Virus record (IMG/VR): IMGVR_UViG_2861084961_000001
Length of the DNA: 64,000 nt
Strand: one strand, 5' to 3'
Source of the DNA: a virus
Taxonomy: Duplodnaviria > Heunggongvirae > Uroviricota > Caudoviricetes
Below are positions 814 through 55,107 of the stretch, one piece after another. Position 1 is the first letter of the stretch; every line of letters starts with the position of its first letter. The translations under genes and the position numbers were made by a program. Below the pieces are notes generated by a model, which was not told the origin of the DNA, did no database searches, and worked only from the letters and a program-made list of their open reading frames with translations.

Positions 814-2921
814 ATGTCTAAAAAACGTTCCATCAAAGAGGTTCAGGACTTCCGTGACAGTGTAAAACGAGTAGTCGCTCTCCTTTCAGGTAAAAACATC
901 CCTGTTGCAGAACGAGGGGACGACGCTTATGTACGCTATAACGATGATGGAGAGCCAATTCTCGTAAACATCCCATCAATCCCGGATAACGCAACACCGG
1001 CATTGATGAATGCTGTGCGCGGATTTCTCGATCATGAGGTTGCTCACATTTTGTTTACCGATATTCGTGTGTCCAACAAAATGAGAGAAAAAGGACGCGT
1101 TCCTTCCTGGTCACTATGGAATGCCTTAGAAGACGTGTTCATCGAGCGAAAAATGGGGCAGGTCTTTAACGGAACGAGACGTAATCTGATGGCAACTCAG
1201 CGCCTTATAATCGAAAAAGTCTTTAAACCAAAGGCTTCAGAGGCTATTGATTATTGTGGCAAAGATCAGCGCGCGCTTTTTCTAAACTTCTTTCTCTGTC
1301 CGGTTGTAAGAGCCTGGGATGGCCAAGCACCGTTCGTAGATTTCATGGATGAATACTGGCCTGTCATTGAGAAACCAATTTCATTATTAAAAGAACATGG
1401 TATCGATGTGGCCGTGCGTAACATGTCTTGCACCGAGGATTGTGTAAAGGTGGCTGCGACCATAGCTAAGATCCTCAAAGACACTGAAAGTGAAAGCAAA
1501 GGTAAGGAGTCAGCTCCGGGAAAAACTTCCGATCCTTCAGATACTGACCAAACGGATGCCTCTGGAGAAAACAATGAAGACAACGAAGATCATGAGACAC
1601 CCTCAGCGTTAGATAATCACAAATCTATCGAATCAGAATCACACAGTAAGCACAAACATGATAATAACGACAGTGATGATTCAGATAATTCTGAATCATC
1701 AGAAACAATATTCGATGATACAGAAAATGATAAAGAGGTATCAGATTCTGATGCTTCTGATAACGCGGCGTCAGAATCATTAACCGCTGACCACGAAAAA
1801 AGAAAAACGACAGAAGACGGCTCTTCAGATATTCCAACTCCGTCAAAAATGAGTCTGGAAGAGGCTTTAGAGGAGCTGGATAGCATAGAAGATGAAGTCG
1901 GAGGCATGACAGAAGATGCTCTATCCGAAACGATTAAAAGCGAGTTAACAGAAAGCTCGAAAGCGAATACAGGCCATACAATCGCTCATACGACTTCATC
2001 GGCTCGATTGATCAGGCAGAAGCCCATATCAAACGGCTTATTAAAACATTCTCCGATATTGATTTAGGAGGATATCCAATCAGCCGCTATCGCATCGTTC
2101 CTGAAGGCAACCAGCTCTTCGACAAATATATTGAAAAGCATCTTTCGTCAGGTGTTTCGTCGACGCTGGCAAAAGACCTGGAGCGAGCAATAGCAAGCAG
2201 AAACAGAGTTCAGTTTATACCGGGCCAGCGTCGGGGGCGCATTCATGGTTCTAGTATCTACAGATTAGCAATGAATGATGATCGCGTGTTTCGTAAAAAA
2301 GAAGAATCTAAAGCCGTTAACGCCTGTGTTCAACAAGTGATTGATTTATCAGGTTCAATGAGTGGTATAACGATACAATTGGCTCTTGCAAGTGCATATA
2401 CCATCGCCGATGCCCTTGATCGAATAAATGTTCCCAACATTATCACCGGCTTCACTACATTTGGTAGTCATATGGCGGCAGGAGAACTTAAGGCTGTCAA
2501 GTATGAGTTCTCTCGCTTTGAATCTTTAATGCTACCTATCATCAAAAATTGGAATGAAAAGGCAAATTCTCGCGAAGTTCGCTCACGTATGGGGTGCGTA
2601 GGCTACACATTCCCACTTCTTAATAACGTGGATGGTGAAAGCATAGCCAGCCTTGCATCGTTATTTTCTGGTCGCATGGAGGACAAGAAGATCATGCTTG
2701 TTCTAAGCGATGGCGCGCCGTGGGCTGTTGGGAGAGGTTTTGACGCTCATTTGCGTTCGGTTGCGAAGCAAATTGAAACGCAGACTGACATTGATTTGAT
2801 GGCAATTGGCATCATGACTGACGCACCGGAGAGATTTTACGCAAACCATGCCCTGGTAACGAGCGTTGATAGTCTTGGTTCATCTGTAGTTACTGAACTA
2901 TCTCGTATCATTTTGAAGTGA
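814..2921 (+). CDS. CobT-like protein: N-terminal domain, D/E/S-rich acidic linker, C-terminal vWA domain (DLSGSMSG MIDAS motif); split by a frameshift near 1935
   Basis: ORFs 814..2067 and 2271..2921; the frame of 2271 is open back to about 1938 and reads as natural protein, junction at an A-run. Confidence 0.5.
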
Positions 2922-3016: not shown

Positions 3017-3289
3017 ATGACTACTACTGCACTGCAAAATGAAAAAAATCCTTCTGATTACCTTGTTTGCAAGTGGTGCGGAAAATCATTTCACTATTTT
3101 AAGTCCCATGTAGCCAATGGTAATTGCGAGGGCATTCCTGAGTCAGTAAAAGATGCCGATCCTGACACCGTACTGAAAATGTACACAACGCAGTTTCCAG
3201 ATGAGCCAACGCTATCGAAAAAGGCACTTGATGCAATTCAAGCTAAACGTGCCGAGCAAAAAGCGAAATGGCCAAATCATCTGGCGTGA
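3017..3289 (+). CDS. hypothetical Cys/His-containing small protein (90 aa), possibly an N-terminal extension of the downstream ATPase
   Basis: ORF track; CxxC...H...C pattern; preceded by AGGAAAAACGCATG start context. Confidence 0.3.
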   Translation: MTTTALQNEKNPSDYLVCKWCGKSFHYFKSHVANGNCEGIPESVKDADPDTVLKMYTTQFPDEPTLSKKALDAIQAKRAEQKAKWPNHLA

Positions 3290-4251
3290 CCAATAGCCCA
3301 GGCTATACAGGCACAGTTGAGTACAAGACAGATCTGGTCGCAGCTCACGAACTGCTAAATGTAACGGTGAAAGAACTCGGAACAAAACGTGGGACGCCGC
3401 TCATGGTTAGCGTCAACGTCAATACGCCGTTTCCAGAGTTCGTTCCAGAAGTGAAGAAGGGATACGTATATGGCGACTTCGAACTGATCAAAGACATTTT
3501 CATGATGCTTGAACTTGGCATACCAGGCTATTTGTGGGGTCATGCAGGAACAGGCAAATCTTCATTGCCTACACAACTATGTGCTTTGCTCAATCGTCCG
3601 TTAATCCGTGCCCAACATACAGCATCAATGGAAGAGGCTCATGTTACGGGACAAATTCTGGCGCGTGATGGCTCTACGTATTTCGAGCCTGGCTTGCTTG
3701 CGCTCGCAATGAAGCATGGCTGGGTTTACCTCGCGGATGAATACGACTTTGCGTTTCCACAGATTCTTGGCGTGTATCAGCCAGTGCTGGAAGGTGAAGC
3801 GTTGGTCATCAAAGAGGCGACTCCAGAATGGCGTCGCATTACTCCGCATGAACGGTTTGCTTTCATTGGCACTGGCAACACGAACGGATCTGGTGATGAA
3901 ACCGGCTTGTACCAGGGTACAAACATCCAGAACGCCGCTAACTTTTCGCGTTTTGGCATCGTTTCGAATGTGAAATACATGAGCAAAGAGGCAGAGATCA
4001 ACATGTTGATAAATGCCGGCATCGTGGATGAATACGCTGAAAAGATGGTTAAGTTTGCCGGTATCGTTCGCGATGGATACGAAGAACACCTGATCAGTCA
4101 GCCGATTGGCCCTCGTGAACTTTTGTTGTCGGCCAAGATTGGAATGATGCGAGGCGACTTTGTGACAGGTATTGAGCGTTCTTTCATTAACAAACTCCCT
4201 TCAGCTTCTGCGCAAGCGGCACGTGAAGTTGTTCAAAAAATATTTGGTTAA
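3268..4251 (+). CDS. MoxR/CobS-like AAA+ ATPase
   Basis: Walker A GHAGTGKSS, Walker B-like VYLADEYD, about 327 aa, adjacent to vWA partner. Confidence 0.65.
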   Translation: MAKSSGVTNSPGYTGTVEYKTDLVAAHELLNVTVKELGTKRGTPLMVSVNVNTPFPEFVPEVKKGYVYGDFELIKDIFMMLELGIPGYLWGHAGTGKSSLPTQLCALLNRPLIRAQHTASMEEAHVTGQILARDGSTYFEPGLLALAMKHGWVYLADEYDFAFPQILGVYQPVLEGEALVIKEATPEWRRITPHERFAFIGTGNTNGSGDETGLYQGTNIQNAANFSRFGIVSNVKYMSKEAEINMLINAGIVDEYAEKMVKFAGIVRDGYEEHLISQPIGPRELLLSAKIGMMRGDFVTGIERSFINKLPSASAQAAREVVQKIFG

Positions 4252-8619: not shown

Positions 8620-9648
8620 ATGTCTAAGACATTACTTGATTTGCTTAACAAAACTCGTGAAGACATTGCCGCCAAACGTGGTAACAACGTTGATCTGACT
8701 CGCTTAAAAGATGGCGTCAACTATATCCGTATCTTCCCGAATAAGGACGACCCAAACGGTAAGTTCTTCCAGACTTTCGGTATGCACTACGTTAAGTATC
8801 AGAACGAGGACGGTAAAGAAGCAACCAACGCTTATATTTGTGAGCAACATACTCACGGTCGCGCTTGTCAGCTATGCGAAATGGTGATGGAAGGTCGCGC
8901 TCGTCACAAGGGTAACAAAGCAATGGAAGAACGCATCGGTCAAATGCGTGCCACTCCTCGCTACCTGGTCAACGGCATTCTTTCAGCTCGTGAGGATTTC
9001 GCCGATGCAGAGAAATGCCAGTTAATCGAACTGCCTTCCACTGTATTCGATGATATCTGCAAAGCAATCACCGAAGACATCGCTGATGATATCGGTAATC
9101 CACTGAGCAAAGAGGAAGGCTACGCATTCCTGATTAAACGTACTGGCTCTGGTCGCGATACCAAATATGACGTCTCGCCTAAGCGTAAAGTCTACAAAGG
9201 CGATATCGAAGATAAATTCTGGAATACCCAGCATGATCTGATCGCATACGCAAATCAGGCTGATGAAACTCGTCTTCTCTCGACAGTTCGCACTATGGGC
9301 CGTCTGATTGGCATCGCAGCACCAACTGCCTCTGCATCTGCACCAGCAATTTCCTCTACCGCGAAAACATCGGCCGCGGCACTGCCTGGATTTGGCTCTG
9401 TCACTGGTCATACGGAGGGTGCGACTGCTGTAGCAACCGCTCACACCCCAGCATCTGAACCAACCAGTCTGGTTGATGAAGAAATCCTCCGAGCCGTTGA
9501 AACTGAATTTAAACCAGAGGCAAGTTCCGCTGCCGTTGCCGTATCAGTCAAAGAGTCTGAAGCAGTCGCAGCGACATCTGTAGCAGCCGCATCTGCGACG
9601 GAAGATGAAGGTCTGGATGATCTACTGAGAGAGCTTGACTCTCTGTAA
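8620..9648 (+). CDS. putative ssDNA-binding protein (Zn-binding Cys/His cluster, Ala-rich linker, acidic C-terminal tail)
   Basis: CEQHTHGRACQLCE cluster and terminal EDEGLDDLLRELDSL; AGGAGAAACACATG start context; position among replication genes. Confidence 0.35.
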   Translation: MSKTLLDLLNKTREDIAAKRGNNVDLTRLKDGVNYIRIFPNKDDPNGKFFQTFGMHYVKYQNEDGKEATNAYICEQHTHGRACQLCEMVMEGRARHKGNKAMEERIGQMRATPRYLVNGILSAREDFADAEKCQLIELPSTVFDDICKAITEDIADDIGNPLSKEEGYAFLIKRTGSGRDTKYDVSPKRKVYKGDIEDKFWNTQHDLIAYANQADETRLLSTVRTMGRLIGIAAPTASASAPAISSTAKTSAAALPGFGSVTGHTEGATAVATAHTPASEPTSLVDEEILRAVETEFKPEASSAAVAVSVKESEAVAATSVAAASATEDEGLDDLLRELDSL

Positions 9649-9666
9649 TCCCATTACGTGACCAGT

Positions 9667-9693
9667 AAGGCGTCTACGGACGCCTTACTTTTT
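9667..9693 (+). terminator. rho-independent terminator hairpin AAGGCGTC-TACG-GACGCCTT followed by T-run
   Basis: Perfect 8-bp stem plus ACTTTTT directly after the 8620..9648 stop. Confidence 0.55.
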
Positions 9694-9708
9694 GGAAGGA
9701 ATGTACCG

Positions 9709-10653
9709 GTGAATTATCTCTTCGTAGATGGCAATAGCCTGGGTTATTACCACCAACAATCTGACAAATTGCACAACGGCGAAATGGAAGTACAGGCTGC
9801 TTTCGGCTTTGTTAAGAACGTCCGTCGTTATGCCTCCATCCTCCATGCCCGACCTATGATTCTTTGGGATGGATTTAGTGACAAGCGTCGCGACTTTTAC
9901 CCGGACTACAAAGCAAATCGCGACGACGATCCTGATATGAAAAAGATGAAGGAAGGCTTTGCTATCCAGAAGCCATACATCCTCAAAATGATGACCGCGC
10001 TTGGAGTTACCCAACTCATTGCAAAAGATGCAGAAGCGGATGATCTGGCCGGGCTGCTGGTATCCCGCATGGCACCGCAGCCAACCGTTGAACACATCTA
10101 TCTGTTAACAGGCGATAGCGACTGGCTTCAGTTAGTTCGTGAAAACGTAAGCTGGGTAAGCCTGCGTGAAGACGCCAAAAACAAGCAGGTTAATTTTGAG
10201 CAATTTGCGAAGCTGACAGGATTCGCCACGCCTCGCGCATTTTTGGAAGCAAAAGCATTACAAGGCGATAACTCGGACAACATTAGCGGTGTTGGTGGCA
10301 TTGGTGCTGGCGGTGCGAAAGAGCTGCTGCATGAATGGGGAAGTGTCGCAACGATGGTACGCGGCATCAACGACGGCTCAATCGTGGTTAATAAAGGGCG
10401 TCATAAGACCGCCTTCAACAAACTAGCGAAGAATGCCTTCAACGAGAAAACAGGCTGTCGAATGCTCGAAGCGTTCAAGAGAAACATCACGCTAATGAAC
10501 CTGATTGAGACGAAGTTTCCGCCTACCGAAATCGAAACAATCAAAGGCAATCGTGACGTGAAAGCATTCGAGCAACTGTGCTACGAGCTGAATTTCCGTT
10601 CGTTCCTTGAAGACCTTGAAGTGTTTGTTCTTCCATTCGAAAGGTATTGCTAA
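9709..10653 (+). CDS. 5-prime to 3-prime exonuclease / flap endonuclease (PIN plus H3TH)
   Basis: LFVDGNSLGYY, DGFSDKRRDFYPDYKANR, LLTGDSDWLQL, GDNSDNISGVGGIG; start moved to in-frame GTG 9709 after the terminator with GGAAGGA RBS (track ORF 9658..10653). Confidence 0.65.
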   Translation: MNYLFVDGNSLGYYHQQSDKLHNGEMEVQAAFGFVKNVRRYASILHARPMILWDGFSDKRRDFYPDYKANRDDDPDMKKMKEGFAIQKPYILKMMTALGVTQLIAKDAEADDLAGLLVSRMAPQPTVEHIYLLTGDSDWLQLVRENVSWVSLREDAKNKQVNFEQFAKLTGFATPRAFLEAKALQGDNSDNISGVGGIGAGGAKELLHEWGSVATMVRGINDGSIVVNKGRHKTAFNKLAKNAFNEKTGCRMLEAFKRNITLMNLIETKFPPTEIETIKGNRDVKAFEQLCYELNFRSFLEDLEVFVLPFERYC

Positions 10654-10919
10654 TGCTTAAATCGATTATTAATGGCGCTACAACCACCCCTGCCCAACTG
10701 GCAAAAGAGATTGTCTTTTATCACGGTGAGTACGCTGTCATCGCACTGCCGTCAATTCTAGGCACTGCCGGAATGAAAGCGACAGATCGCGAGTTTGGAT
10801 TAGTCAGCGAGCAGGTCGTAAAAATCCTCGCTCGTGTATCCAGACTCCTTAACCACGATGCGATTGTATTCGACGAATCCGCCGCTTTAAAACGAATCAA
10901 CGAAACAAAAGGAGCCTGA
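10647..10919 (+). CDS. hypothetical protein (90 aa)
   Basis: ORF track. Confidence 0.35.
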   Translation: MLMLKSIINGATTTPAQLAKEIVFYHGEYAVIALPSILGTAGMKATDREFGLVSEQVVKILARVSRLLNHDAIVFDESAALKRINETKGA

Positions 10920-10921
10920 TC

Positions 10922-11995
10922 ATGGCAAAAGGAAAATCCGCACTGGCACTTGCTCTGAAAAAGAAAATCGGTAGCAACGACGAAATTCAGAAAGTAACTC
11001 ATTGGATTGACACAGGCTTTCCTCCGTTAAACAAAGCTATTTCCGGTCGTTACGATGGCGGTTTCCCATGTGGTCGTATCGTCGAAGTATTCGGGCCGCC
11101 AAGCGCGGGGAAAACTTTTTTGGCAACGGCAGCAATGATCTCCGCTCAGAAACAAGATGGCCTGGCGGTATTCCTCGATCATGAGAACAGTTTTGACGTT
11201 GGCCTGGCTGTCGCCAATGGTCTGAACGCAGATGAGGATGACGGCCAGTGGGTATACAAGCAGCCTGATACCTTCGAAGACTCTGTAGAGTTGATCGGCA
11301 CAATACTTAAATTGGTACGTGATGAAGAGCTTATCCCTGAATCAGCACCTATCTGTATCGTGGCTGACTCACTTGCGTCTATGGTTCCGAACTCCAAAGC
11401 CGAGAAGTTCGAAAAGATGGCTGAAGGCACTGCCAAAGACAAAGATCAGCTAAACATGAACGACAATACGGCGCTGGCTCGTGCAACGAGTGCGAACTTC
11501 CCCACTCTGGCTTTGTGGGCACGCAAATACAACGCCTGCATCATCTTCTTGAATCAGGTTCGCACAAAAATCGGTGTAATGTTTGGCGACCCTACTACGT
11601 CACCAGGCGGCGATTCACCGAAGTTTTACGCTTCTGTGCGCATCCGTCTCGGTGCATCGGTGATGAAGGATGGTAAAGAGAAGATCGGTCAGGACGTAGG
11701 CGCAGAGTGCATCAAAAACAAAGTTGCACCACCGTATGGCAAATGCACCTGGAAATTCTACTTCGATCCTACTCGTGGCCTCGACGTTATCGAGTCGCTC
11801 GTCGAGTACATGCTGGAAGAAGGATACCTGCCAAAGAACGCCAGCGGTCGAGTAGAAATTGGTGACAAGAAATACACCAAATCACAGATCGTCGAGATGT
11901 ATCGGGAGAAGCCACTAGCTGAAATCATTGCAGCTTTACAGGCAATCGACGACCGGAGAGCAAAAGATACCCCCACCGAGTCAGTAGAAGGGTAA
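10922..11995 (+). CDS. RecA-like recombinase
   Basis: Walker A GPPSAGKTFLA, 357 aa, RecA-like layout. Confidence 0.6.
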   Translation: MAKGKSALALALKKKIGSNDEIQKVTHWIDTGFPPLNKAISGRYDGGFPCGRIVEVFGPPSAGKTFLATAAMISAQKQDGLAVFLDHENSFDVGLAVANGLNADEDDGQWVYKQPDTFEDSVELIGTILKLVRDEELIPESAPICIVADSLASMVPNSKAEKFEKMAEGTAKDKDQLNMNDNTALARATSANFPTLALWARKYNACIIFLNQVRTKIGVMFGDPTTSPGGDSPKFYASVRIRLGASVMKDGKEKIGQDVGAECIKNKVAPPYGKCTWKFYFDPTRGLDVIESLVEYMLEEGYLPKNASGRVEIGDKKYTKSQIVEMYREKPLAEIIAALQAIDDRRAKDTPTESVEG

Positions 11996-29780: not shown

Positions 29781-29850
29781 CTCTGTGAGGTTTTTGTGTC
29801 ACTCCTTTTGAATCGTGAGCATACGAACGGTCAGGTAACAAACGCATCGT

Positions 29851-30898
29851 ATGCAAAAGTTATTGAGACGGTGCTTAAAGCGGCGTGCAGGCTGATGATC
29901 GCACAGGCACTGGTACTTTAAGCACCTGCTACGTTCCCTCTTACTACATGCTTACTGGTGGGACTGTGCCGCTTATTTCTGGAAAGGCGGTAAATCTTAA
30001 GCCACTACTTGTCGAACTTGAGTGGTATCTGAAAGGCACGGGTAACATCCAATTTCTCAAGGATAACGGCGTGAAGATTTGGGACGCATGGGCCGATGAG
30101 AATGGTGATTTGGGGCCGGTTTACGGCAAGCAGTGGCGTCGCTGGGAAGATACCCGCATCGTGAGCCATAGTGAGTATCTGAGCAAGATCGATACGTTCC
30201 GTGAACGCGGGTACAAAGTCGAGGGATACCTGGGTATCAGTGAAGATCGCGTAGTGCTGTCCCGTGAAATCGATCAGCTACAGCGTATTGTCGATACACT
30301 GCGCACGAACCCTACCGATCGTCGCATCATGCTTAACGCATGGAACGTAGGCGAGCTTGAGGATATGAAACTGCCACCTTGCCACTTTGTCTTCTCTTTG
30401 TGGAGTCGTGAGCTTGATTTTGAAACCCGTTTAACGATGGCAACTGACATTGGTCTTCAACACAGTCGCCTCGGTTACGAGTCTATCTATACCAAGATGC
30501 TATACGATCTGGAGATGGTCGGCAGTGTTACTGAAACTGAACTGGATGAACTTGGAATCCCCAAACGCATCCTCAACTCCTGCCTCGTACAGCGTAGCGT
30601 AGACACTTTTGTTGGTATGCCATTCAATATTGCTGGTTATGGCATTCTCACTCATTTTCTCGCGAAGATTACGGGTCACATGGCCGGTGCCTTTGTGCAT
30701 TTTGGCTTTGACGTGCATTTGTACAACAACCACATGGAAGGTGTGTGTGAGCTAATGAAACGACAGGCTCCAGAGCATTCAGATCCGGTCGTTATTTTCC
30801 CTCATGAATGGTCAGAGTTGGATGATTTCAAATGGGACGAGGTTCTAATTCTTGGCTATGCCCCTCTACCGTGGATCAAGGTTCCAGTGGCGGTGTGA
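29851..30898 (+). CDS. thyA: thymidylate synthase (frameshift in first about 12 codons)
   Basis: DRTGTGTLS, DENGDLGPVYGKQWRRW, PPCHFVFSLW, QRSVDTFVGMPFNIAGYGILTH; ATG 29851 reads 14 codons then stops, GTG-started ORF 29885..30898 carries the rest. Confidence 0.85.
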
Positions 30899-30899
30899 T

Positions 30900-31313
30900 A
30901 TGGCAAGAGGTATGTATGTCTTATGCGAAATTGAAGGTGTGCTGGCAAATACCAGCCATCGTAAATCTGTATCTGACGCGGATGCAGGCCAGCTCATTGC
31001 CGGTGATGAACTCATTTTCCCCACCAGCCGTATGTTGCGTGGTTTTGCTCGCTCAGGGGCTGAAGTGGTGCTTATCAGTAGCCGCTCTGAAACTCTTGAA
31101 GCGCCCACTAAACGATGGCTGAAAGATTTTGGTGTTGATTACGACTGGCTTCATCTCGTACCGAATGGCATCAGTTATGAGAAGCATATTAAGCGCACAT
31201 TAGCGGAGCATAAAGGCGATCTGCTTATCGCTGCGCTGGTGCACGATCCTCGACTCCGTGCCGCTTTAGCTGACTCTCATCATAGACCGGTCATCTATGA
31301 GGTGGGCAAATGA
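30900..31313 (+). CDS. hypothetical protein, possibly HAD-like hydrolase fold
   Basis: ORF track 30852..31313; internal ATG 30900 directly after thyA stop; weak HAD-like blocks. Confidence 0.3.
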   Translation: MARGMYVLCEIEGVLANTSHRKSVSDADAGQLIAGDELIFPTSRMLRGFARSGAEVVLISSRSETLEAPTKRWLKDFGVDYDWLHLVPNGISYEKHIKRTLAEHKGDLLIAALVHDPRLRAALADSHHRPVIYEVGK

Positions 31314-31785
31314 AGATGATAGCTGCTGTTGGCCGTAACTATGAGATCGGCATAGCGAACGAACTGCCCTGGCGTTGTTCTACCGATCTGAAGCTATTTA
31401 AGAGACTCACCAAAAACGCCACTGTCGTTATGGGCGTAAAACGATGGAAAGTCTCAAACGTCCTCTTCCAGAGCGTCATAACCTCGTTTTGACGCGCTCT
31501 CATGGCTTTGTACCAAATGGATTCTACCCTGCTGGTGTGGATGATGTGTTGCGATTACCAGAGCCTGTGTGGGTGATTGGCGGGGAACAAATTTACTCGC
31601 TATTCATGCCGCATGTTGAAGAGATTTGGCTCTCCCACATCGGCGTTGATGTACCAAACGCTGATGCATTCTTCCCGGCAAGCATGATGCGTAACTTAGG
31701 CTTTGTGCCTGTTGAAACAGCTTATACCCAACGAGCCAGCGAGGAAGAGCCTGGCTTTTCGCAGATCGTATACAGAAGGTCGTAA
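31310..31785 (+). CDS. folA: dihydrofolate reductase (frameshift near 31440)
   Basis: MIAAVGRNYEIGIANELPWR, VVMG, LPERHNLVLTRS, WVIGGEQIY across ORFs 31310..31492 and 31444..31785. Confidence 0.75.
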
Positions 31786-36217: not shown

Positions 36218-36808
36218 ATGACGTCGAAGACACCAGCCCGGTCGCAAGCAAAAACTCGCAAAAAAGACAAAAACAAAAATTCTCCCCGCACCAATCCCAC
36301 AACGCCTGTCGTAGAGTTCAATCCCCAGCTTAAAACCGTGAAAATCTTCAGTGATGGCTCTTGCCTTAAAAATCCGGGTGGCCCGGGCGGTTACGGTATA
36401 GTTCTCCAGTATCGTGGTGAGGAACGCGAGTTCTCAGATGGTTTTCATAGCACCACCAATAACCGCATGGAGATGATGGGGGCACTTATCGGGCTGGAGC
36501 GTTTGAAATATCCATGCAACGTTATTTTGCACTCTGATAGCCAGTATCTGAAAAACGGCATGACACAGTGGATGAAATGGTGGAAACGCAATGGATGGAT
36601 GACTTCTGACAAAAAACCGGTAAAGAATGTTGATCTGTGGAAGCGTCTGGATGAGGCCGCAAGTCGACATAATGTTCGCTGGAAGTGGGTTAAAGGTCAC
36701 GCCGGGCATCGTGAAAATGAAATATGTGATCGACTCGCGAAGATCGCAGCTTTTTCCGCAGCAGATATGCCTCACAAGAAAGATATTGGTTTTGTTTATA
36801 ACAAGTAG
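36218..36808 (+). CDS. rnhA: ribonuclease HI with about 45-aa basic N-terminal extension
   Basis: [91 protein letters not shown]; ATG 36218 inside track ORF 36134..36808. Confidence 0.85.
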
Positions 36809-46998: not shown

Positions 46999-47440
46999 GC
47001 AATAGTACGATAAAGAGGCCCCATGCTCTTGATGGGGCCTGTAGCAACTAGCGTTATGGACGCTGGTTTACGTACTCAATGATCGCTTTGATAATCGCGA
47101 ACATCGGCGGCACGATTTTGAACAGTAAGTTAACCATAACAGGCCTCACTTAGTTTTATCGCGCCTAGCTGCAAATACCTTTGGGCTTGCCTTTGCAGTT
47201 GCAATATCTGTAGTCGCCAGATACTTACGGCACGATTTCGAGTTAAGGTAAGGTTTTAGAGTCACCAAAAACCTGGACTTAAATCTTCTTTGAGAACAAC
47301 GATGTTTAGTAAATGGTCATTATTACCTGGTATGACCACTCAACGTTTCTTGATGAATCCAGTACATTCGGTTAATCTTAATTCAGTCGCCAGATACTTA
47401 TGGCTCAGGAACAGAGCCGCAAACTCTGTTTCCTTTTAAA

Positions 47441-47469
47441 AAGCCCAGCCTAGTCAACTGGGCTTTTTA
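47441..47469 (+). terminator. rho-independent terminator AAGCCCAG-loop-CTGGGCTT plus T5, preceded by a second hairpin at about 47408-47433
   Basis: Stem-loops with T-run inside a 760-bp non-coding stretch. Confidence 0.5.
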
Positions 47470-47763
47470 ATGTCTATTTTTAACCCAATGAACCTTCAAT
47501 ACCGCAACATCAGTGTCTTGCGAATTAAGATAGTGTGTATAGGTTATACATGCAAGTGCATAACTCTGTGGATAACTCAGGAAGGAAAAAGTAGCTTCCG
47601 CGCAATTTAGGCCAGACAAGGCTTTCGCAAAAATCAACGGAGAGAAAAAAATTTGTTAAAAATAACGTTTGTTGGAATTGTATATATTTATGCCTTTCAA
47701 TAGTTAGCATCTTATTAACATCTTTTTTAAGAGATAGAGTTCAAAAATATATAGCTTCAACAT

Positions 47764-47783
47764 ATACTGTATGCATATACAGT
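47764..47783. promoter_or_regulatory. LexA (SOS) box TACTGTATGCATATACAGTA
   Basis: Perfect CTGT-N8-ACAG palindrome about 17 bp upstream of the umuD-like start. Confidence 0.7.
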
Positions 47784-47800
47784 ATTAAGAGGCGAGTATT

Positions 47801-48190
47801 ATGGGCTTCCCTTCTCCTGCGGCGGATTATGCTGAGAGCCGTATTTCTCTTGATCAGCAGATAATTAGACATCCTTCAGCGACCTACTTCTTGAGGGCAG
47901 CTGATAGCCATCATCGTGAGGGAATATTGCAGGGTGCATTGCTGGTGGTCGATTCCTCACTCACTCCTGTTGATGGATCTCTTCTTGTATGTGCTCTGGA
48001 TGGGGAATATCGCGTAAAAAGATACCGGAAGTATCCACGTCAGCATCTGGAGGATTTAAGAACTGGTAAGAAGGAAGCATTGCCAAAGGATGATGATGGA
48101 TGCACGGGCAGCAATGCCGTGTTTGGTGTGATCACTCACATTATCAACGACGCAAGAAGTGGCGAGTTTGATGATTGTCCTGTGATGTAG
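47801..48190 (+). CDS. umuD: UmuD-prime-like protein (S24 peptidase fold, begins at the position matching the UmuD cleavage product)
   Basis: MGFPSPAADYAESRISLDQQIIRHPSATYFLRA...DGEYRVKRY matches the recalled UmuD core from residue 25 onward. Confidence 0.65.
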   Translation: MGFPSPAADYAESRISLDQQIIRHPSATYFLRAADSHHREGILQGALLVVDSSLTPVDGSLLVCALDGEYRVKRYRKYPRQHLEDLRTGKKEALPKDDDGCTGSNAVFGVITHIINDARSGEFDDCPVM

Positions 48191-48201
48191 GAGAACTGTT
48201 T

Positions 48202-48222
48202 AGGTGGTGCATTGCACCACCT
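48202..48222. terminator. perfect palindromic hairpin AGGTGGTGCA-T-TGCACCACCT between convergent umuD-like and mrp
   Basis: 10-bp perfect stem; T-run on plus strand. Confidence 0.45.
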
Positions 48223-48227
48223 TTTTA

Positions 48228-49328
48228 TCACACTGCGCGGAATGCGATTTCGCCAGGTATTACTTCACCTTGCCAATACATTTGGGCAGCAACGCGATCT
48301 GCGAGGTCACGATAAATAGCCGTAAATTCGCTATCTGGACGACTAATAACGGTTGGTGTTCCGTTATCCAGATCCTCACGAAGAGAGATATGAAGTGGCA
48401 TTTGGCCTAACAACTGCGTGTTGTATTTCTCGGCCAGTTTCTGTGCGCCACCGGTGCCAAAAATTGGCTCGTGATGACCGCAGTTACTGCAAATATGCAC
48501 ACTCATGTTTTCGACGATACCTAGTACCGGCACTTCGACTTTTTCGAACATCACAATGCCTTTCTTCGCATCGATCAGCGCGATGTCTTGCGGCGTAGTT
48601 ACCACAACCGCACCAGTTACAGGAATGTTCTGCGCCAGCGTCAATTGAATATCACCAGTGCCCGGCGGCATATCGAGAACGAGATAGTCCAGATCAGGCC
48701 ACAGTGTTTCCTGCAACATCTGCATCAGCGCCTTGCTGGCCATCGGTCCACGCCACACCATTGCATTGTCGTCGGTGACCAGATAACCAATAGAGTTGGT
48801 TGCCAGGCCATGAGACATGATAGGTGCCATGTGAGTACCGTCCGGTGAGGTTGGACGTTGGTTTTCCGCACCCAGCATGGTTGGAATTGATGGACCGTAG
48901 ATATCGGCATCCAAAATACCAACTTTCGCACCTTCAGCAGCCAACGCCAGTGCCAAGTTTACTGCTGTGGACGATTTGCCTACACCGCCCTTGCCTGAGC
49001 TGACGGCGATGATGTTCTTAACGCCATTAATGCCTGGTTGGTTTTTGACGCGCTTAAGCGTGGCAATGTTGTACGACAGCTTCCAGTCGATAGCCTTTGC
49101 GCCAGTGATACGGAGCAGATCACCACTACATTGCTCTTTCAGGTCTTCAAAAGGCTTATTCCACACGAAAGGCATGATTAGTTCGACATGCAGTGTGTCA
49201 TCCATCAACGCAACATGGTGTAACGCTTTAAGCGTAGTCAGGTTGTGCTTCAGGGTTGGGTGCTGAAAATTAGCCAGCGTACCGGCTACCATTGCTCTCA
49301 GGGCATCCGGCGATTTGGACTCGCTCAT
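48228..49328 (-). CDS. mrp: Mrp/ApbC Fe-S cluster carrier ATPase, intact, host-type
   Basis: 366 aa; deviant Walker A SSGKGGVGKSSTAVNLA, CxxC motif; near-identical to recalled E. coli Mrp. Confidence 0.9.
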   Translation of the reverse strand: MSESKSPDALRAMVAGTLANFQHPTLKHNLTTLKALHHVALMDDTLHVELIMPFVWNKPFEDLKEQCSGDLLRITGAKAIDWKLSYNIATLKRVKNQPGINGVKNIIAVSSGKGGVGKSSTAVNLALALAAEGAKVGILDADIYGPSIPTMLGAENQRPTSPDGTHMAPIMSHGLATNSIGYLVTDDNAMVWRGPMASKALMQMLQETLWPDLDYLVLDMPPGTGDIQLTLAQNIPVTGAVVVTTPQDIALIDAKKGIVMFEKVEVPVLGIVENMSVHICSNCGHHEPIFGTGGAQKLAEKYNTQLLGQMPLHISLREDLDNGTPTVISRPDSEFTAIYRDLADRVAAQMYWQGEVIPGEIAFRAV

Positions 49329-49485
49329 CCCGTCTCCTTTATTTTAATTTGCGCAATTGTCGCCTTGTAGTGTACTCCAGCTACGACATTTAATCATTTA
49401 TGAGAAATGCTGTTATCACATGGCAGACATAAGGCCATTTTGTTACTATCAAGCCCCTTTTCACTACAAAGAAGTAATGCCTACT

Positions 49486-51519
49486 ATGACCCAAGTCGCG
49501 AAGAAAATTCTGGTGACGTGCGCGCTGCCGTACGCTAACGGCTCAATCCACCTCGGCCATATGCTGGAGCACATCCAGGCTGATGTCTGGGTTCGTTACC
49601 AGCGAATGCGCGGCCACGAGGTTAATTTCATCTGTGCCGACGATGCCCACGGTACGCCGATCATGCTGAAAGCACAGCAGCTTGGTATCACACCGGAACA
49701 GATGATTGGCGAAATGAGCCAGGAACACCAGACTGATTTCGCAGGCTTTAACATCAGCTATGACAACTATCACTCGACGCACAGCGAAGAGAACCGCCAG
49801 CTGTCTGAGCTTATCTATACTCGCCTGAAAGAGAACGGTTTTATTAAAAACCGCACTATCTCTCAGTTGTACGACCCGGAAAAAGGCATGTTCCTGCCGG
49901 ATCGTTTTGTGAAAGGCACCTGTCCGAAATGTAAAGCGCCAGATCAATACGGCGATAACTGTGAAGTTTGCGGCGCGACCTACAGCCCGACTGAACTGAT
50001 TGAGCCGAAATCGGTAGTTTCTGGCGCTACGCCGGTAATGCGTGATTCTGAACACTTCTTCTTTGATCTGCCCTCTTTCAGCGAAATGTTGCAGGCATGG
50101 ACCCGCAGCGGTGCGTTGCAGGAGCAGGTGGCAAACAAAATGCAGGAGTGGTTTGAATCTGGTCTGCAACAGTGGGATATCTCCCGCGACGCACCTTACT
50201 TCGGTTTTGAAATTCCGAACGCGCCGGGTAAATATTTCTACGTCTGGCTGGACGCACCGATTGGCTACATGGGTTCCTTCAAGAATCTGTGCGACAAGCG
50301 CGGCGACACTACCAGCTTCGATGAATACTGGAAGAAAGACTCCACCGCCGAGCTGTACCACTTCATCGGTAAAGATATCGTTTACTTCCACAGCCTGTTC
50401 TGGCCTGCCATGCTGGAAGGCAGCAACTTCCGCAAGCCGACCAACCTGTTTGTTCACGGCTATGTGACGGTGAACGGCGCGAAGATGTCCAAGTCTCGCG
50501 GCACCTTTATTAAAGCCAGCACCTGGTTGAATCATTTTGACGCTGACAGCCTGCGTTACTACTACACCGCCAAACTGTCTTCGCGCATTGATGATATCGA
50601 TCTCAACCTGGAAGATTTCGTTCAGCGCGTGAATGCCGATATCGTGAACAAAGTGGTTAACCTGGCCTCCCGTAATGCGGGCTTTATCAACAAACGTTTT
50701 GACGGCGTGCTGGCAAGCGAACTGGCTGACCCGCAACTGTACAAAACCTTTACTGATGCCGCTGAAGTGATTGGCGAAGCATGGGAAAGCCGCGAATTTG
50801 GTAAAGCTATCCGTGAAATCATGGCATTGGCTGACCTGGCTAACCGCTATGTCGATGAACAGGCTCCGTGGGTGGTGGCGAAGCAGGAAGGACGCGATGC
50901 CGATCTGCAGGCGATTTGCTCTATGGGCATTAACCTGTTCCGCGTGCTGATGACTTACCTGAAACCGGTACTGCCGAAACTGACAGAACGTGCGGAAGCA
51001 TTCCTCAATACGGAACTGACCTGGGATGGCATCCAGCAACCGCTGCTGGGCCATAAAGTGAATCCGTTCAAAGCACTGTATAACCGTATCGACATGAAAC
51101 AGGTGGAAGCATTGGTGGAAGCGTCTAAAGAAGAAGTGAAAGCTACTGCCGCGCCAGTTACTGGCCCGCTGGCAGACGACCCGATTCAGGAAACCATCAC
51201 CTTTGACGACTTTGCCAAAGTTGACCTGCGCGTGGCGCTGATCGAAAACGCAGAGTTTGTTGAAGGTTCTGACAAACTGCTGCGCCTGACGCTGGATCTC
51301 GGCGGTGAAAAACGTAATGTCTTCTCAGGCATCCGTTCCGCTTATCCAGACCCACAGGCACTGATTGGCCGTCACACCATTATGGTGGCTAACCTGGCTC
51401 CGCGTAAAATGCGTTTCGGTATCTCCGAAGGCATGGTGATGGCTGCTGGCCCCGGCGGGAAAGACATCTTCCTGTTAAGCCCGGATGCTGGTGCTAAACC
51501 TGGCCACCAGGTTAAGTAA
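49486..51519 (+). CDS. metG: methionyl-tRNA synthetase, intact, host-type
   Basis: [29 protein letters not shown] (HIGH-type), KMSKS, C-terminal tRNA-binding domain; start at ATG 49486 inside track ORF 49357..51519. Confidence 0.95.
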
Positions 51520-54795: not shown

Positions 54796-55107
54796 ATGAA
54801 AAAATCATTGGTTCTTGGTCTGGACAAAGACCAGAAGAGAAAAGAGAAGCCTGCACTGGTTGCTCAATTAACTTTGCTGGACATCGTTGCCAATGGAACC
54901 TCTATTCGTCTGTTCCGTGAAACAGCGGTGTCTTTCGATAAAAACACCTTTACTCGTTATGTAATGAATGTTCGTCGCCAGCGTGGAAAAGGCTGGGTGG
55001 CATTTCAAAGAATGTGGCCGGAACATCAGCTCGAACTGGCTTTGATGGAAGTTAACCGCGTGGCCCAGCAAGAAATTCAGAGAGCATCAGTGATGGCAAT
55101 AGCCTGA
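54796..55107 (+). CDS. hypothetical basic protein (103 aa)
   Basis: ATG 54796 inside track ORF 54766..55107; motif-B site upstream. Confidence 0.4.
   Translation: MKKSLVLGLDKDQKRKEKPALVAQLTLLDIVANGTSIRLFRETAVSFDKNTFTRYVMNVRRQRGKGWVAFQRMWPEHQLELALMEVNRVAQQEIQRASVMAIA

What the first reader, a model, noticed from the sequence alone, without database searches (positions are those of the whole stretch)
47764..48190. SOS-controlled UmuD-prime-like gene at the left edge of the host block
A perfect LexA box lies about 17 bp upstream of a gene whose product begins where mature UmuD-prime begins, i.e. it would not need RecA-mediated cleavage. This resembles the HumD arrangement of phage P1 and would couple host DNA damage to element-encoded mutagenesis functions.
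Basis: partly seen in the sequence, partly recalled or inferred. Interest (0 to 1): 0.5.

Follow-up and report, generated by a model that had tools for sequence, protein, structure and literature searches.

The report
LexA-controlled humD gene on a phage-plasmid
This is an ordinary, already catalogued copy of humD, the phage-P1-type gene for a ready-made UmuD' subunit of error-prone DNA polymerase V. It sits behind a LexA (SOS) operator on an SSU5-like phage-plasmid of E. coli.

Summary
A LexA box (TACTGTATGCATATACAGTA, 47765-47784) lies 16 nt upstream of a 129-codon ORF (47801-48190). It overlaps the -10 of a sigma-70-like promoter. The product begins MGFPSPAADY, exactly where mature UmuD' begins.

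The gene is more than HumD-like: it is a HumD orthologue.
- It gives a full-length hit to the NCBIfam equivalog "HumD family" (217.7 bits, cutoff 120).
- It is 90.7% identical to P1 HumD, and a 100% identical copy lies on a public E. coli plasmid.
- RefSeq already names near-identical copies "HumD family translesion DNA polymerase".

The LexA box recurs upstream of 11 of 13 homologues in unrelated contexts. In published RNA-seq, the 99%-identical copy in phage-plasmid Cyrano rises about 30-fold inside macrophages, a genotoxic setting, while its neighbours stay flat.

The window is not an element next to a chromosome. It is an SSU5-like phage-plasmid throughout, and the "host block" is only a captured apbC-metG pair (48228-51519). 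There is no umuC in the window, so the gene must work with host UmuC.

Two family features seen in passing may be undescribed. The C-terminal tail EFDDCPVM is invariant and absent from UmuD. The protease serine is often replaced by threonine.

Verdict: real, well explained, already known, low interest.

The parts
47551..47764 (+). Upstream non-coding segment homologous to the P7/P1 upfN-upfO region. It contains a DnaA-box consensus TGTGGATAA at 47567-47575 and abuts the LexA box directly. The hot and lxr genes that separate the two in P1 are absent here.
   Evidence: 84% identity to P7 and to P1-like records; alignment. There is no similarity to P1 lxr.
47740..47768 (+). Sigma-70-type promoter-like site: -35 TTCAAA, 17-nt spacer, -10 TATACT.
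   Evidence: Consensus scan, 9 of 12 matches. This is a prediction only; the number of such sites in the region does not exceed chance.
47765..47784 (.). LexA operator (SOS box) TACTGTATGCATATACAGTA, overlapping the -10 hexamer and the likely transcription start.
   Evidence: Unique in the window, 0 of 100 shuffles. The same or a near-identical box lies upstream of homologues in P1, D6, phiKO2, HK140, an Enterobacter phage, Hafnia phage Pocitis76 and prophages of Klebsiella, Enterobacter and Trabulsiella. The P1 site is annotated as a LexA binding site.
47787..47792 (+). Shine-Dalgarno sequence AAGAGG, 8 nt before the ATG. The in-frame stop TAA at 47786-47788 just precedes it.
   Evidence: Read directly from the sequence.
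47801..48190 (+). humD: a 129-aa pre-processed UmuD'-like protein. Ser36 and Lys73 correspond to UmuD Ser60 and Lys97. The family-specific C-terminal tail GEFDDCPVM is residues 121-129.
   Evidence: NCBIfam NF051876 HumD family, 217.7 bits against a cutoff of 120, covering 1-129 of 129. Pfam Peptidase_S24. PDB UmuD' E 6.8e-23. 90.7% identity to P1 HumD and 99.2% to Cyrano CYRAN_98. 100% identical copy on NZ_CP081792.1.
48202..48230 (+). Intrinsic terminator: a 9-bp stem (6 G-C pairs), 3-nt loop and a TTTTTAT tail. It lies between the humD stop and the stop of the convergent apbC gene.
   Evidence: Terminator scan. RNA fold -15.3 kcal/mol, z = -3.95. It lies outside both the P1 homology and the chromosomal apbC homology, which starts at about 48228.

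Best explanation
The feature is a self-contained, monocistronic humD cassette carried as accessory cargo by an SSU5-like phage-plasmid of E. coli. The cassette consists of a promoter with an overlapping LexA operator, a ribosome-binding site, a 129-codon gene and a terminator. In undamaged cells, host LexA sits on the operator and holds transcription down. After DNA damage, RecA* triggers LexA self-cleavage and the gene is derepressed. The product is made directly in the shape of UmuD', starting at the residue that follows the Cys24/Gly25 cleavage site of UmuD. It therefore skips the slow RecA*-dependent maturation step, and it lacks the N-terminal arm of UmuD. HumD dimers are then expected to combine with the host's own SOS-induced UmuC, plus RecA-ATP, to form a polymerase-V-like translesion enzyme. 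That enzyme would let damaged element and host DNA be copied at the price of mutations. Shown here: the sequence anatomy, orthology to P1 HumD, conservation of the operator across the family, absence of a partner polymerase gene in the window, and stress-induced transcription of a 99%-identical copy in published data. Inferred: LexA binding at this site, partnership with host UmuC, and the benefit to the element.
For: Family identity: NCBIfam equivalog HumD, full length, 217.7 bits against a cutoff of 120. Identity to HumD is 90.7% for P1 and 89.9% for D6, and about 70% to phiKO2 gp23. The P1 record annotates humD as 'functionally complements E. coli UmuD'' and its box as a LexA binding site. 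The title of McLenigan et al. 1999, cited, states that HumD is a functional UmuD' homologue that facilitates SOS mutagenesis.

Start point: the alignment begins at UmuD G25, and an in-frame stop lies 5 codons upstream. Of 120 family representatives, 109 start M-GFPSP. The longer calls all have a Met or another start-compatible residue immediately before GFPSP.

Operator: it is unique in the window and absent from shuffles, and it overlaps the -10. Both half-sites are conserved in 11 of 13 homologues whose upstream DNA is otherwise unrelated.

Expression: Cyrano CYRAN_98 has log2 fpkm of about 7.2 in LB, 11.3 in macrophages at 1 h and 12.2 at 6 h. CYRAN_97, 99 and 100 stay flat. The paper describes the macrophage as a genotoxic, SOS-inducing environment.

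No partner polymerase: tblastn with UmuC against the window gives a best E of 1.5, and no SSU5-like or P1 records appear among the listed phage UmuC hits.

Relaxed nucleophile: the Ser60-equivalent is S in 75, T in 43 and A in 2 of 120, while Lys is kept in 117 of 120. This fits a protein that no longer has to cleave itself.
Against: Nothing here shows LexA binding, or UmuC binding by this particular protein. The promoter call is a weak consensus match (9 of 12), and the region has no more such sites than shuffles do. CYRAN_98 is already about 15-fold above the Cyrano background in overnight LB, so repression is leaky or stationary phase is partly SOS-induced. The macrophage induction has not been shown to depend on LexA, and a few other Cyrano genes also rise. 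From memory of McLenigan 1999, P1 HumD complemented well only when overproduced, so the physiological role could be something other than mutagenesis. The invariant C-terminal tail, absent from UmuD', hints at an additional function that this model does not explain.
Confidence: 0.88

Rival explanations
1. HumD is mainly a modulator of the host damage response rather than a mutagenesis factor. As a UmuD'-like dimer, with or without UmuC, it would bind RecA filaments, the beta clamp or Pol III. That would slow replication or inhibit RecA-mediated recombination during SOS, protecting or favouring the phage-plasmid. The invariant acidic C-terminal peptide would be the docking motif.
For: The tail E-F-D-D-C-P-V-M is conserved at 108-117 of 120 sequences per position, more strictly than the protease serine. 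It is absent from UmuD and is kept through synonymous codon changes. It is predicted disordered, with pLDDT below 50 for residues 120-129. These are the marks of a short linear interaction motif. The element also encodes its own RecA-like and gp32-like proteins. P1 humD is dispensable for lytic growth.
Against: No partner has been identified or can be tested here. P1 HumD is reported to substitute for UmuD' (and the paper title). The two roles are not mutually exclusive.
Confidence: 0.08
2. HumD is the SOS-sensing trigger of prophage induction. In this view it is a LexA-controlled antirepressor that inactivates the element's lysogeny repressor, by analogy with Tum of phage 186 or AntC of N15.
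For: It carries the only good LexA box in the 64-kb window. Cyrano virion production rises 39-fold with ciprofloxacin. The protein is small and LexA-controlled, as known antirepressors are.
Against: The family is an orthologue group of UmuD', with the P1 member reported to act as UmuD'. The same cassette sits in phages with quite different immunity systems: P1, N15-like, lambdoid and P22-like. The candidate Cyrano repressor CYRAN_45 is only 129 aa, too short to carry an S24 domain for heterodimerisation, and lies outside the window. tblastn with UmuD finds no other S24-like sequence in the window. About 44 kb of the element is outside the window and could hold the real switch.
Confidence: 0.03
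3. It is an active S24 peptidase or a LexA-like transcriptional regulator, as some database names say ('LexA family transcriptional regulator', 'S24 family peptidase').
For: There is a Pfam Peptidase_S24 hit. Ser36 and Lys73 are retained in this copy. Some sources use these names.
Against: There is no DNA-binding domain. The protein is 129 aa and the LexA model scores 29 bits against a cutoff of 110.95, matching only the C-terminal domain. There is no cleavage-site arm to cut. The GDSM motif is ADSH here, and the Ser is Thr or Ala in 45 of 120 relatives.
Confidence: 0.01

Closest known systems
HumD of bacteriophage P1 (with its LexA site shared with lxr)
   Same: Both are 129 aa and 90.7% identical. 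Both have the same MGFPSP start, the same Ser/Lys positions, the same C-terminal tail, a LexA box 16-19 nt upstream, and no adjacent umuC.
   Different: The carrier is an SSU5-like siphovirus phage-plasmid, not a Punavirus. There is no divergent lxr and no hot gene upstream. Downstream, phd-doc is replaced by a terminator and a captured apbC-metG pair. The central 4 nt of the box differ: GCAT here, AAAT(G) in P1.
gp23 of phiKO2 / gp26 of N15 and the prophage-end humD-dinI modules of Enterobacteriaceae
   Same: These are the same family at 65-72% identity. The 20-nt LexA box is identical in phiKO2 and in Klebsiella and Enterobacter prophages. The start and the tail are the same.
   Different: In those elements the box is shared with a divergent dinI gene, or precedes a small upstream ORF, and the gene sits after tail-fibre genes next to att/int or sopAB. 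Here it stands alone.
E. coli UmuD / UmuD' (polymerase V accessory subunit)
   Same: The fold family and alignment are shared over UmuD residues 25-139 at about 42% identity. Ser60 and Lys97 equivalents are present, and both genes are under LexA control.
   Different: There is no 24-residue N-terminal arm or cleavage site, and no umuC in an operon. HumD has a 1-residue deletion and ADSH in place of GDSM at the nucleophile, an extra loop near residues 97-105, and a 10-12 residue conserved C-terminal tail. It scores below the NCBIfam UmuD subfamily cutoff, 86.6 against 110.
Plasmid and phage umuDC-type operons (MucAB, ImpAB, RumAB; phages vB_SosS_Oslo, ENT39118)
   Same: They are mobile-element-borne, SOS-related UmuD homologues at 37-48% identity.
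   Different: Those encode full-length, cleavable UmuD-type proteins together with their own Y-family polymerase. This one is pre-cleaved and orphan.

Membership tests
HumD family (NCBIfam NF051876, equivalog) | Full-length match to the family model above its curated cutoff | tested here: met
   217.7 bits against a cutoff of 120, residues 1-129 on model positions 1-129.
HumD family | Protein begins at the position of UmuD Gly25, so there is no pro-peptide and no Cys-Gly cleavage site | tested here: met
   Alignments. An in-frame stop at 47786-47788. 109 of 120 family representatives start the same way.
HumD family | LexA operator in the promoter region | tested here: met
   Sequence-level only. 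The box is at 47765-47784 and overlaps the -10. It is conserved in 11 of 13 relatives.
HumD family | LexA actually binds and represses; the gene is SOS-inducible | not testable with these tools
   Support is indirect: about 30-fold induction of the 99%-identical Cyrano gene in macrophages.
HumD family | Orphan gene, with no cognate umuC-type polymerase gene alongside | tested here: met
   tblastn with UmuC against the window gives a best E of 1.5. The neighbours are a non-coding segment and apbC. The roughly 44 kb of the element outside the window was not examined directly. Related phage records do not appear among the listed UmuC hits.
HumD family | Dimerises, binds UmuC and RecA filaments, and complements UmuD' in vivo | not testable with these tools
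   Reported for P1 HumD (annotation; McLenigan 1999 title). Not tested for this protein.
UmuD (autoproteolytic Pol V subunit, NCBIfam NF007621) | N-terminal arm with a RecA*-dependent self-cleavage site, and a score above the subfamily cutoff | tested here: not met
   86.6 bits against a cutoff of 110. UmuD residues 1-24 have no counterpart.
Peptidase S24 (Pfam PF00717) | S24 domain with a Ser/Lys dyad | tested here: met
   39.8 bits against a cutoff of 23.3. Ser36 and Lys73 are aligned. The Ser is not conserved across the family, with T or A in 45 of 120, so catalysis is probably not required.
LexA repressor (TIGR00498) | N-terminal winged-helix DNA-binding domain plus an S24 domain | tested here: not met
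   29 bits against a cutoff of 110.95. Only model positions 91-166 are matched.

The most novel reading that the evidence does not exclude
HumD proteins may be more than pre-cleaved UmuD'. The whole family carries an invariant, predicted-disordered acidic C-terminal peptide, [G/A]-E-F-D-D-C-P-V-[M/I], that UmuD, MucA-type and RumA-type proteins lack. The peptide is conserved more strictly than the protease nucleophile. It resembles, from memory only, the C-terminal tip of SSB (D-F-D-D-D-I-P-F). It could therefore dock HumD, or a HumD-UmuC complex, onto a protein that normally reads the SSB tail or onto another replisome or repair partner. That would give phage-plasmids and prophages a distinct way to steer or hijack host translesion synthesis.
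Probability: 0.1. Interest if true: 0.5.

Novelty: already known. Interest (0 to 1): 0.12.

Why it matters
It matters little as a discovery. The gene, its LexA control and its UmuD'-like nature were described for P1 in the 1990s. A curated NCBI model exists for the family, and near-identical copies on E. coli plasmids already carry the HumD name.

The useful outcomes are corrective and contextual. (1) The window is an SSU5-like phage-plasmid throughout, not an element abutting a chromosome. (2) humD travels as a compact operator-plus-gene cassette among unrelated phage and plasmid backbones: P1, D6, N15-like, lambdoid, P22-like and SSU5-like. The cassette copy with these flanks is in about 2% of complete E. 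coli genomes (109 of 5426), and some humD-related match is in 820 of 5426. (3) Public RNA-seq shows the cassette strongly switched on inside macrophages. That bears on stress-induced mutagenesis in a Crohn's-disease-associated E. coli strain.

Tried and rejected
- Remnant of the UmuD N-terminal arm upstream of the ATG. tblastn alignments in relatives appeared to extend to UmuD residue 11, but they run through the TAA at 47786-47788 and across the LexA box, so they are an artefact.
- An lxr homologue divergent from humD, as in P1. There is none. The upstream DNA is unrelated to lxr and instead matches the P7/P1 upfN-upfO segment.
- umuC or any Y-family polymerase in the window. None was found.
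- Other SOS boxes in the window. One weak 3-mismatch site lies at 36392, and a CTGT-N8-ACAG with a GC-rich spacer lies at 54910. Both are consistent with chance.
- Known RNA families in the window, including the 800-nt gap upstream. There were no Rfam hits at gathering thresholds.
- HumD as an S24-domain antirepressor. This is weakly disfavoured; see the rival explanations.
- AlphaFold model. Confidence was only moderate (mean pLDDT 67.9). I did not run a fold search because the sequence match to crystallised UmuD' is already decisive.
- The primary papers McLenigan 1999 (PMC94175) and the P1 genome paper (PMC523184) are not held in the library. What I say of their content beyond titles and GenBank annotation is from memory.
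- Source of the apbC-metG block. E. coli chromosomes are the closest at about 90% nt identity, and no species representative comes closer. The donor remains unresolved.

Full report
**1. What is in the sequence**

At 47765-47784 the + strand reads TACTGTATGCATATACAGTA. Both 8-nt arms are perfect inverted repeats of the LexA half-site. Eighteen of 20 positions match the consensus TACTGTATATATATACAGTA. It is the only site in the 64-kb window within three mismatches of that 20-mer, and none of 100 dinucleotide-preserving shuffles produced a match (related scans).

A sigma-70-like promoter (TTCAAA, 17 nt, TATACT) occupies 47740-47768, so the operator overlaps the -10 hexamer and the probable transcription start. 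AAGAGG at 47787-47792 is a ribosome-binding site 8 nt before the ATG at 47801.

An in-frame TAA at 47786-47788 excludes any longer N-terminus. The ORF runs to 48190 and encodes 129 aa. It is followed by a strong hairpin with a T-run at 48202-48230, which folds at -15.3 kcal/mol with z = -3.95. The unit is therefore a complete monocistronic cassette.

**2. What the protein is**

- Pfam places it in Peptidase_S24.
- NCBIfam gives a full-length hit to the equivalog model "HumD family translesion DNA polymerase": 217.7 bits against a cutoff of 120, positions 1-129 of 129.
- It falls below the cutoffs for autoproteolytic UmuD (86.6 against 110) and for LexA (29 against 110.95).
- Against solved structures, the best match is UmuD' (1umu_A, E 6.8e-23). 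Query residue 2 aligns to residue 1 of the crystallised mature UmuD' chain.
- tblastn with E. coli UmuD matches only 47804-48157, covering UmuD residues 25-139.
- The protein is 90.7% identical to P1 HumD, 89.9% to D6, 99.2% to CYRAN_98 of phage-plasmid Cyrano and about 70% to phiKO2 gp23.
- A 100% identical copy lies on the E. coli plasmid NZ_CP081792.1.
- RefSeq already labels several copies 97-98% identical at the DNA level "HumD family translesion DNA polymerase", as do many UniRef and NCBI entries.
- Ser36 and Lys73 align with the UmuD catalytic Ser60 and Lys97.

**3. Where it sits**

The window is not an element next to a chromosome. It matches E. coli plasmids of 100-120 kb and the phages Cyrano, CMS-2020a and PhiR41_1 at 95-99% identity, and Salmonella phage SSU5 more distantly. 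These are SSU5-like phage-plasmids.

Phage-plasmid genes continue on both sides of the cassette:
- nrdAB, thyA, a dfrA51-like gene and Ea22-like genes upstream;
- hypothetical genes, a UvsW-like helicase and ParB genes downstream.

The "host block" is exactly two genes, apbC (48228-49328, minus strand) and metG (49486-51519). Their similarity to the E. coli chromosome is about 90% at the nucleotide level. It starts at the apbC stop codon and ends at the metG stop codon. SSU5 itself has none of humD, apbC or metG in the syntenic interval, so these genes are accessory cargo of the E. coli lineage.

Similarity to P1 begins at the LexA box and ends at the humD stop. The 214 nt just upstream (47551-47764) match the P7/P1 upfN-upfO segment that in P1 lies before hot. 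Relative to P1, hot and lxr are missing here.

**4. Is the LexA control credible?**

I examined 13 homologues in other contexts:
- P1 and D6;
- the N15-like phiKO2 and two Klebsiella linear prophages;
- the lambdoid phage HK140;
- an Enterobacter phage and two Enterobacter prophages;
- a Trabulsiella prophage, a Citrobacter contig, Hafnia phage Pocitis76 and the P22-like APC_JM3.2.

Eleven have both CTGT and ACAG half-sites in a 20-mer matching 15-19 of 20 consensus positions. The box lies 16-44 nt before the start codon, or about 260 nt before it when a small ORF intervenes. Two have one degenerate half. The flanking DNA is otherwise unrelated, so this is a phylogenetic footprint. In P1 and phiKO2 the site is annotated as a LexA binding site.

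Published RNA-seq for E. coli LF82 carrying Cyrano gives the following log2 fpkm for CYRAN_98:

| Condition | Replicate 1 | Replicate 2 |
|---|---|---|
| LB | 7.44 | 6.94 |
| Medium control, 1 h | 9.56 | 9.89 |
| Medium control, 6 h | 9.14 | 9.03 |
| Macrophages, 1 h | 11.37 | 11.30 |
| Macrophages, 6 h | 12.12 | 12.31 |

The flanking CYRAN_97, CYRAN_99 (apbC) and CYRAN_100 (metG) do not rise (PMC9928086 S1 Table). The authors describe the macrophage as a genotoxic environment with a documented SOS response, and they show that Cyrano is induced 39-fold by ciprofloxacin.

This is consistent with SOS control, but it does not prove dependence on LexA. Basal expression in overnight LB is already about 15-fold above the Cyrano median.

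**5. How it most likely works**

Established knowledge of Pol V:
- UmuD must be cleaved at Cys24/Gly25 on RecA* filaments to give UmuD'.
- UmuD'2 binds UmuC, and with RecA-ATP this forms the active mutasome.
- umuDC is repressed by LexA.

HumD is synthesised already in the UmuD' form, so the only control left is transcriptional, through LexA. No Y-family polymerase is present in the window or among the listed UmuC hits in phage records related to this element. The partner must therefore be host UmuC.

Family statistics fit a protein that no longer needs self-cleavage. Among 120 cluster representatives at 66-98% identity, 109 begin M-GFPSP, and the longer calls look like mis-called starts. The nucleophile position is Ser in 75, Thr in 43 and Ala in 2. 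The lysine is kept in 117.

Functional equivalence to UmuD' rests on P1 HumD, through the GenBank annotation and the McLenigan et al. 1999 title. The details I recall of that paper are from memory, because the paper is not in the library. These are dimerisation, binding to UmuC and RecA filaments, and good complementation only at high copy number. P1 humD is dispensable for lytic growth (PMC10695390), as expected for an accessory gene.

**6. Rivals**

- A modulatory role, acting on recombination or replication through RecA, the clamp or Pol III, is not excluded. It could coexist with mutagenesis.
- An antirepressor role in induction is unlikely. The same cassette sits in phages with unrelated immunity systems, and the candidate Cyrano repressor is a 129-aa protein outside the window.
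- The database names "LexA family transcriptional regulator" and "S24 peptidase" are domain-level labels. The protein has no DNA-binding domain.

**7. Something possibly new, seen in passing**

All HumD-family proteins end in a tail, [G/A]-E-F-D-D-C-P-V-[M/I], that UmuD lacks.
- Each position is conserved in 108-117 of 120 representatives, more strictly than the nucleophile.
- The residues are kept through synonymous codon changes.
- AlphaFold2 predicts the tail to be disordered, with pLDDT below 50 for residues 120-129.

These are the marks of a short linear interaction motif. Its resemblance to the SSB C-terminal tip is from my memory and is untested.

**8. Verdict**

The feature is a known gene of a known family in a known regulatory arrangement, and it is already correctly named in public annotation. 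Novelty: already known. Interest: low.

Noticed in passing
window 48228-51519: A captured apbC (minus strand) and metG (plus strand) pair sits inside the phage-plasmid, trimmed to the two genes and their shared intergenic region. It is about 90% identical at the nucleotide level to E. coli chromosomes, 87-88% to other Escherichia-like genomes and 82-84% to Citrobacter and Salmonella. It occurs at 224 plasmid places among complete E. coli genomes and is absent from SSU5. In Cyrano RNA-seq, the apbC copy is about 9-fold above background in LB and the metG copy is low. Why a phage-plasmid keeps a diverged second methionyl-tRNA synthetase and an Fe-S carrier is unexplained.
   Followed up: partly
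window 48161-48187 (HumD residues 121-129); alignment A3: The family-specific C-terminal tail GEFDDCPVM is absent from UmuD and nearly invariant in 120 representatives. It is conserved through synonymous changes and predicted disordered. It looks like a docking peptide, and its partner is unknown.
   Followed up: partly
window 47903-47911 (HumD residues 35-37); The S24 nucleophile motif GDSM is ADSH here. Across the family the Ser position is Thr in 43 and Ala in 2 of 120 representatives, while the adjacent His (107 of 120) and Arg39 (invariant in the 94-sequence alignment A3) are conserved. The active site appears remodelled rather than simply decayed.
   Followed up: partly
window 47551-47764: The non-coding DNA abutting the LexA box is 84% identical to the P7/P1 upfN-upfO segment and contains a perfect DnaA box (TGTGGATAA, 47567-47575). 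P7 retains the right half of this LexA box and the same ribosome-binding site, but its humD is truncated next to IS903. This shows the same cassette variant circulating in the P1 family.
   Followed up: partly
window 46999-47550: About 550 nt have no ORF of convincing length and no Rfam hit. A terminator-like hairpin lies at 47447-47464 (+) and another at 47016-47040 (-). The stretch is conserved in Cyrano (99.5%) and CMS-2020a (93%). Its function is unknown.
   Followed up: no
window 8620-11995: The element encodes its own gp32-like single-strand-binding protein (8620-9648), a 5'-3' exonuclease (9658-10653) and a RecA-family recombinase (10922-11995). Whether the element's RecA-like protein can serve HumD/UmuC or affect LexA cleavage is an open question.
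   Followed up: partly
window 29796-30895 and 31310-31782: The thyA gene and the dfrA51-like trimethoprim-resistant DHFR gene each align to the pRM9131-1 proteins in two different reading frames. These are apparent frameshifts, near 29885 and 31436. They could be real pseudogenes or assembly errors.
   Followed up: no
L003 1181-1884; L004 910-1890; L093 371-1081; L094 and L095 2181-2884: In N15-like and lambdoid prophages, the humD homologue lies at the prophage end after tail-fibre genes. It is paired divergently with dinI, another SOS gene, and they share one LexA box. In HK140 and a Trabulsiella prophage, a 79-aa ORF of unknown function sits between the box and humD.
   Followed up: partly
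phage records H33-H39 (e.g. FJ188381 60195-60439): Many Stx2-converting and lambdoid phage records carry only the C-terminal two-thirds of a humD-like gene (residues about 45-128, 54% identity), unannotated and at the extreme end of the record. In HK140 the annotated putative attP overlaps the 3' end of the humD homologue. This suggests that integration sites lie within or beside this gene.
   Followed up: no
window 54910-54925: A second CTGT-N8-ACAG (CTGTTCCGTGAAACAG) has a GC-rich spacer and poor flanks. Two such matches in the window are within chance expectation (12 of 100 shuffles), so it is probably not a LexA site.
   Followed up: no
window 814-2067 and 3268-4251: CobT-like and AAA_5 (CobS-like) proteins are encoded on the phage-plasmid. 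In Cyrano the equivalents are annotated as cobalamin-related genes. They were not examined further.
   Followed up: no
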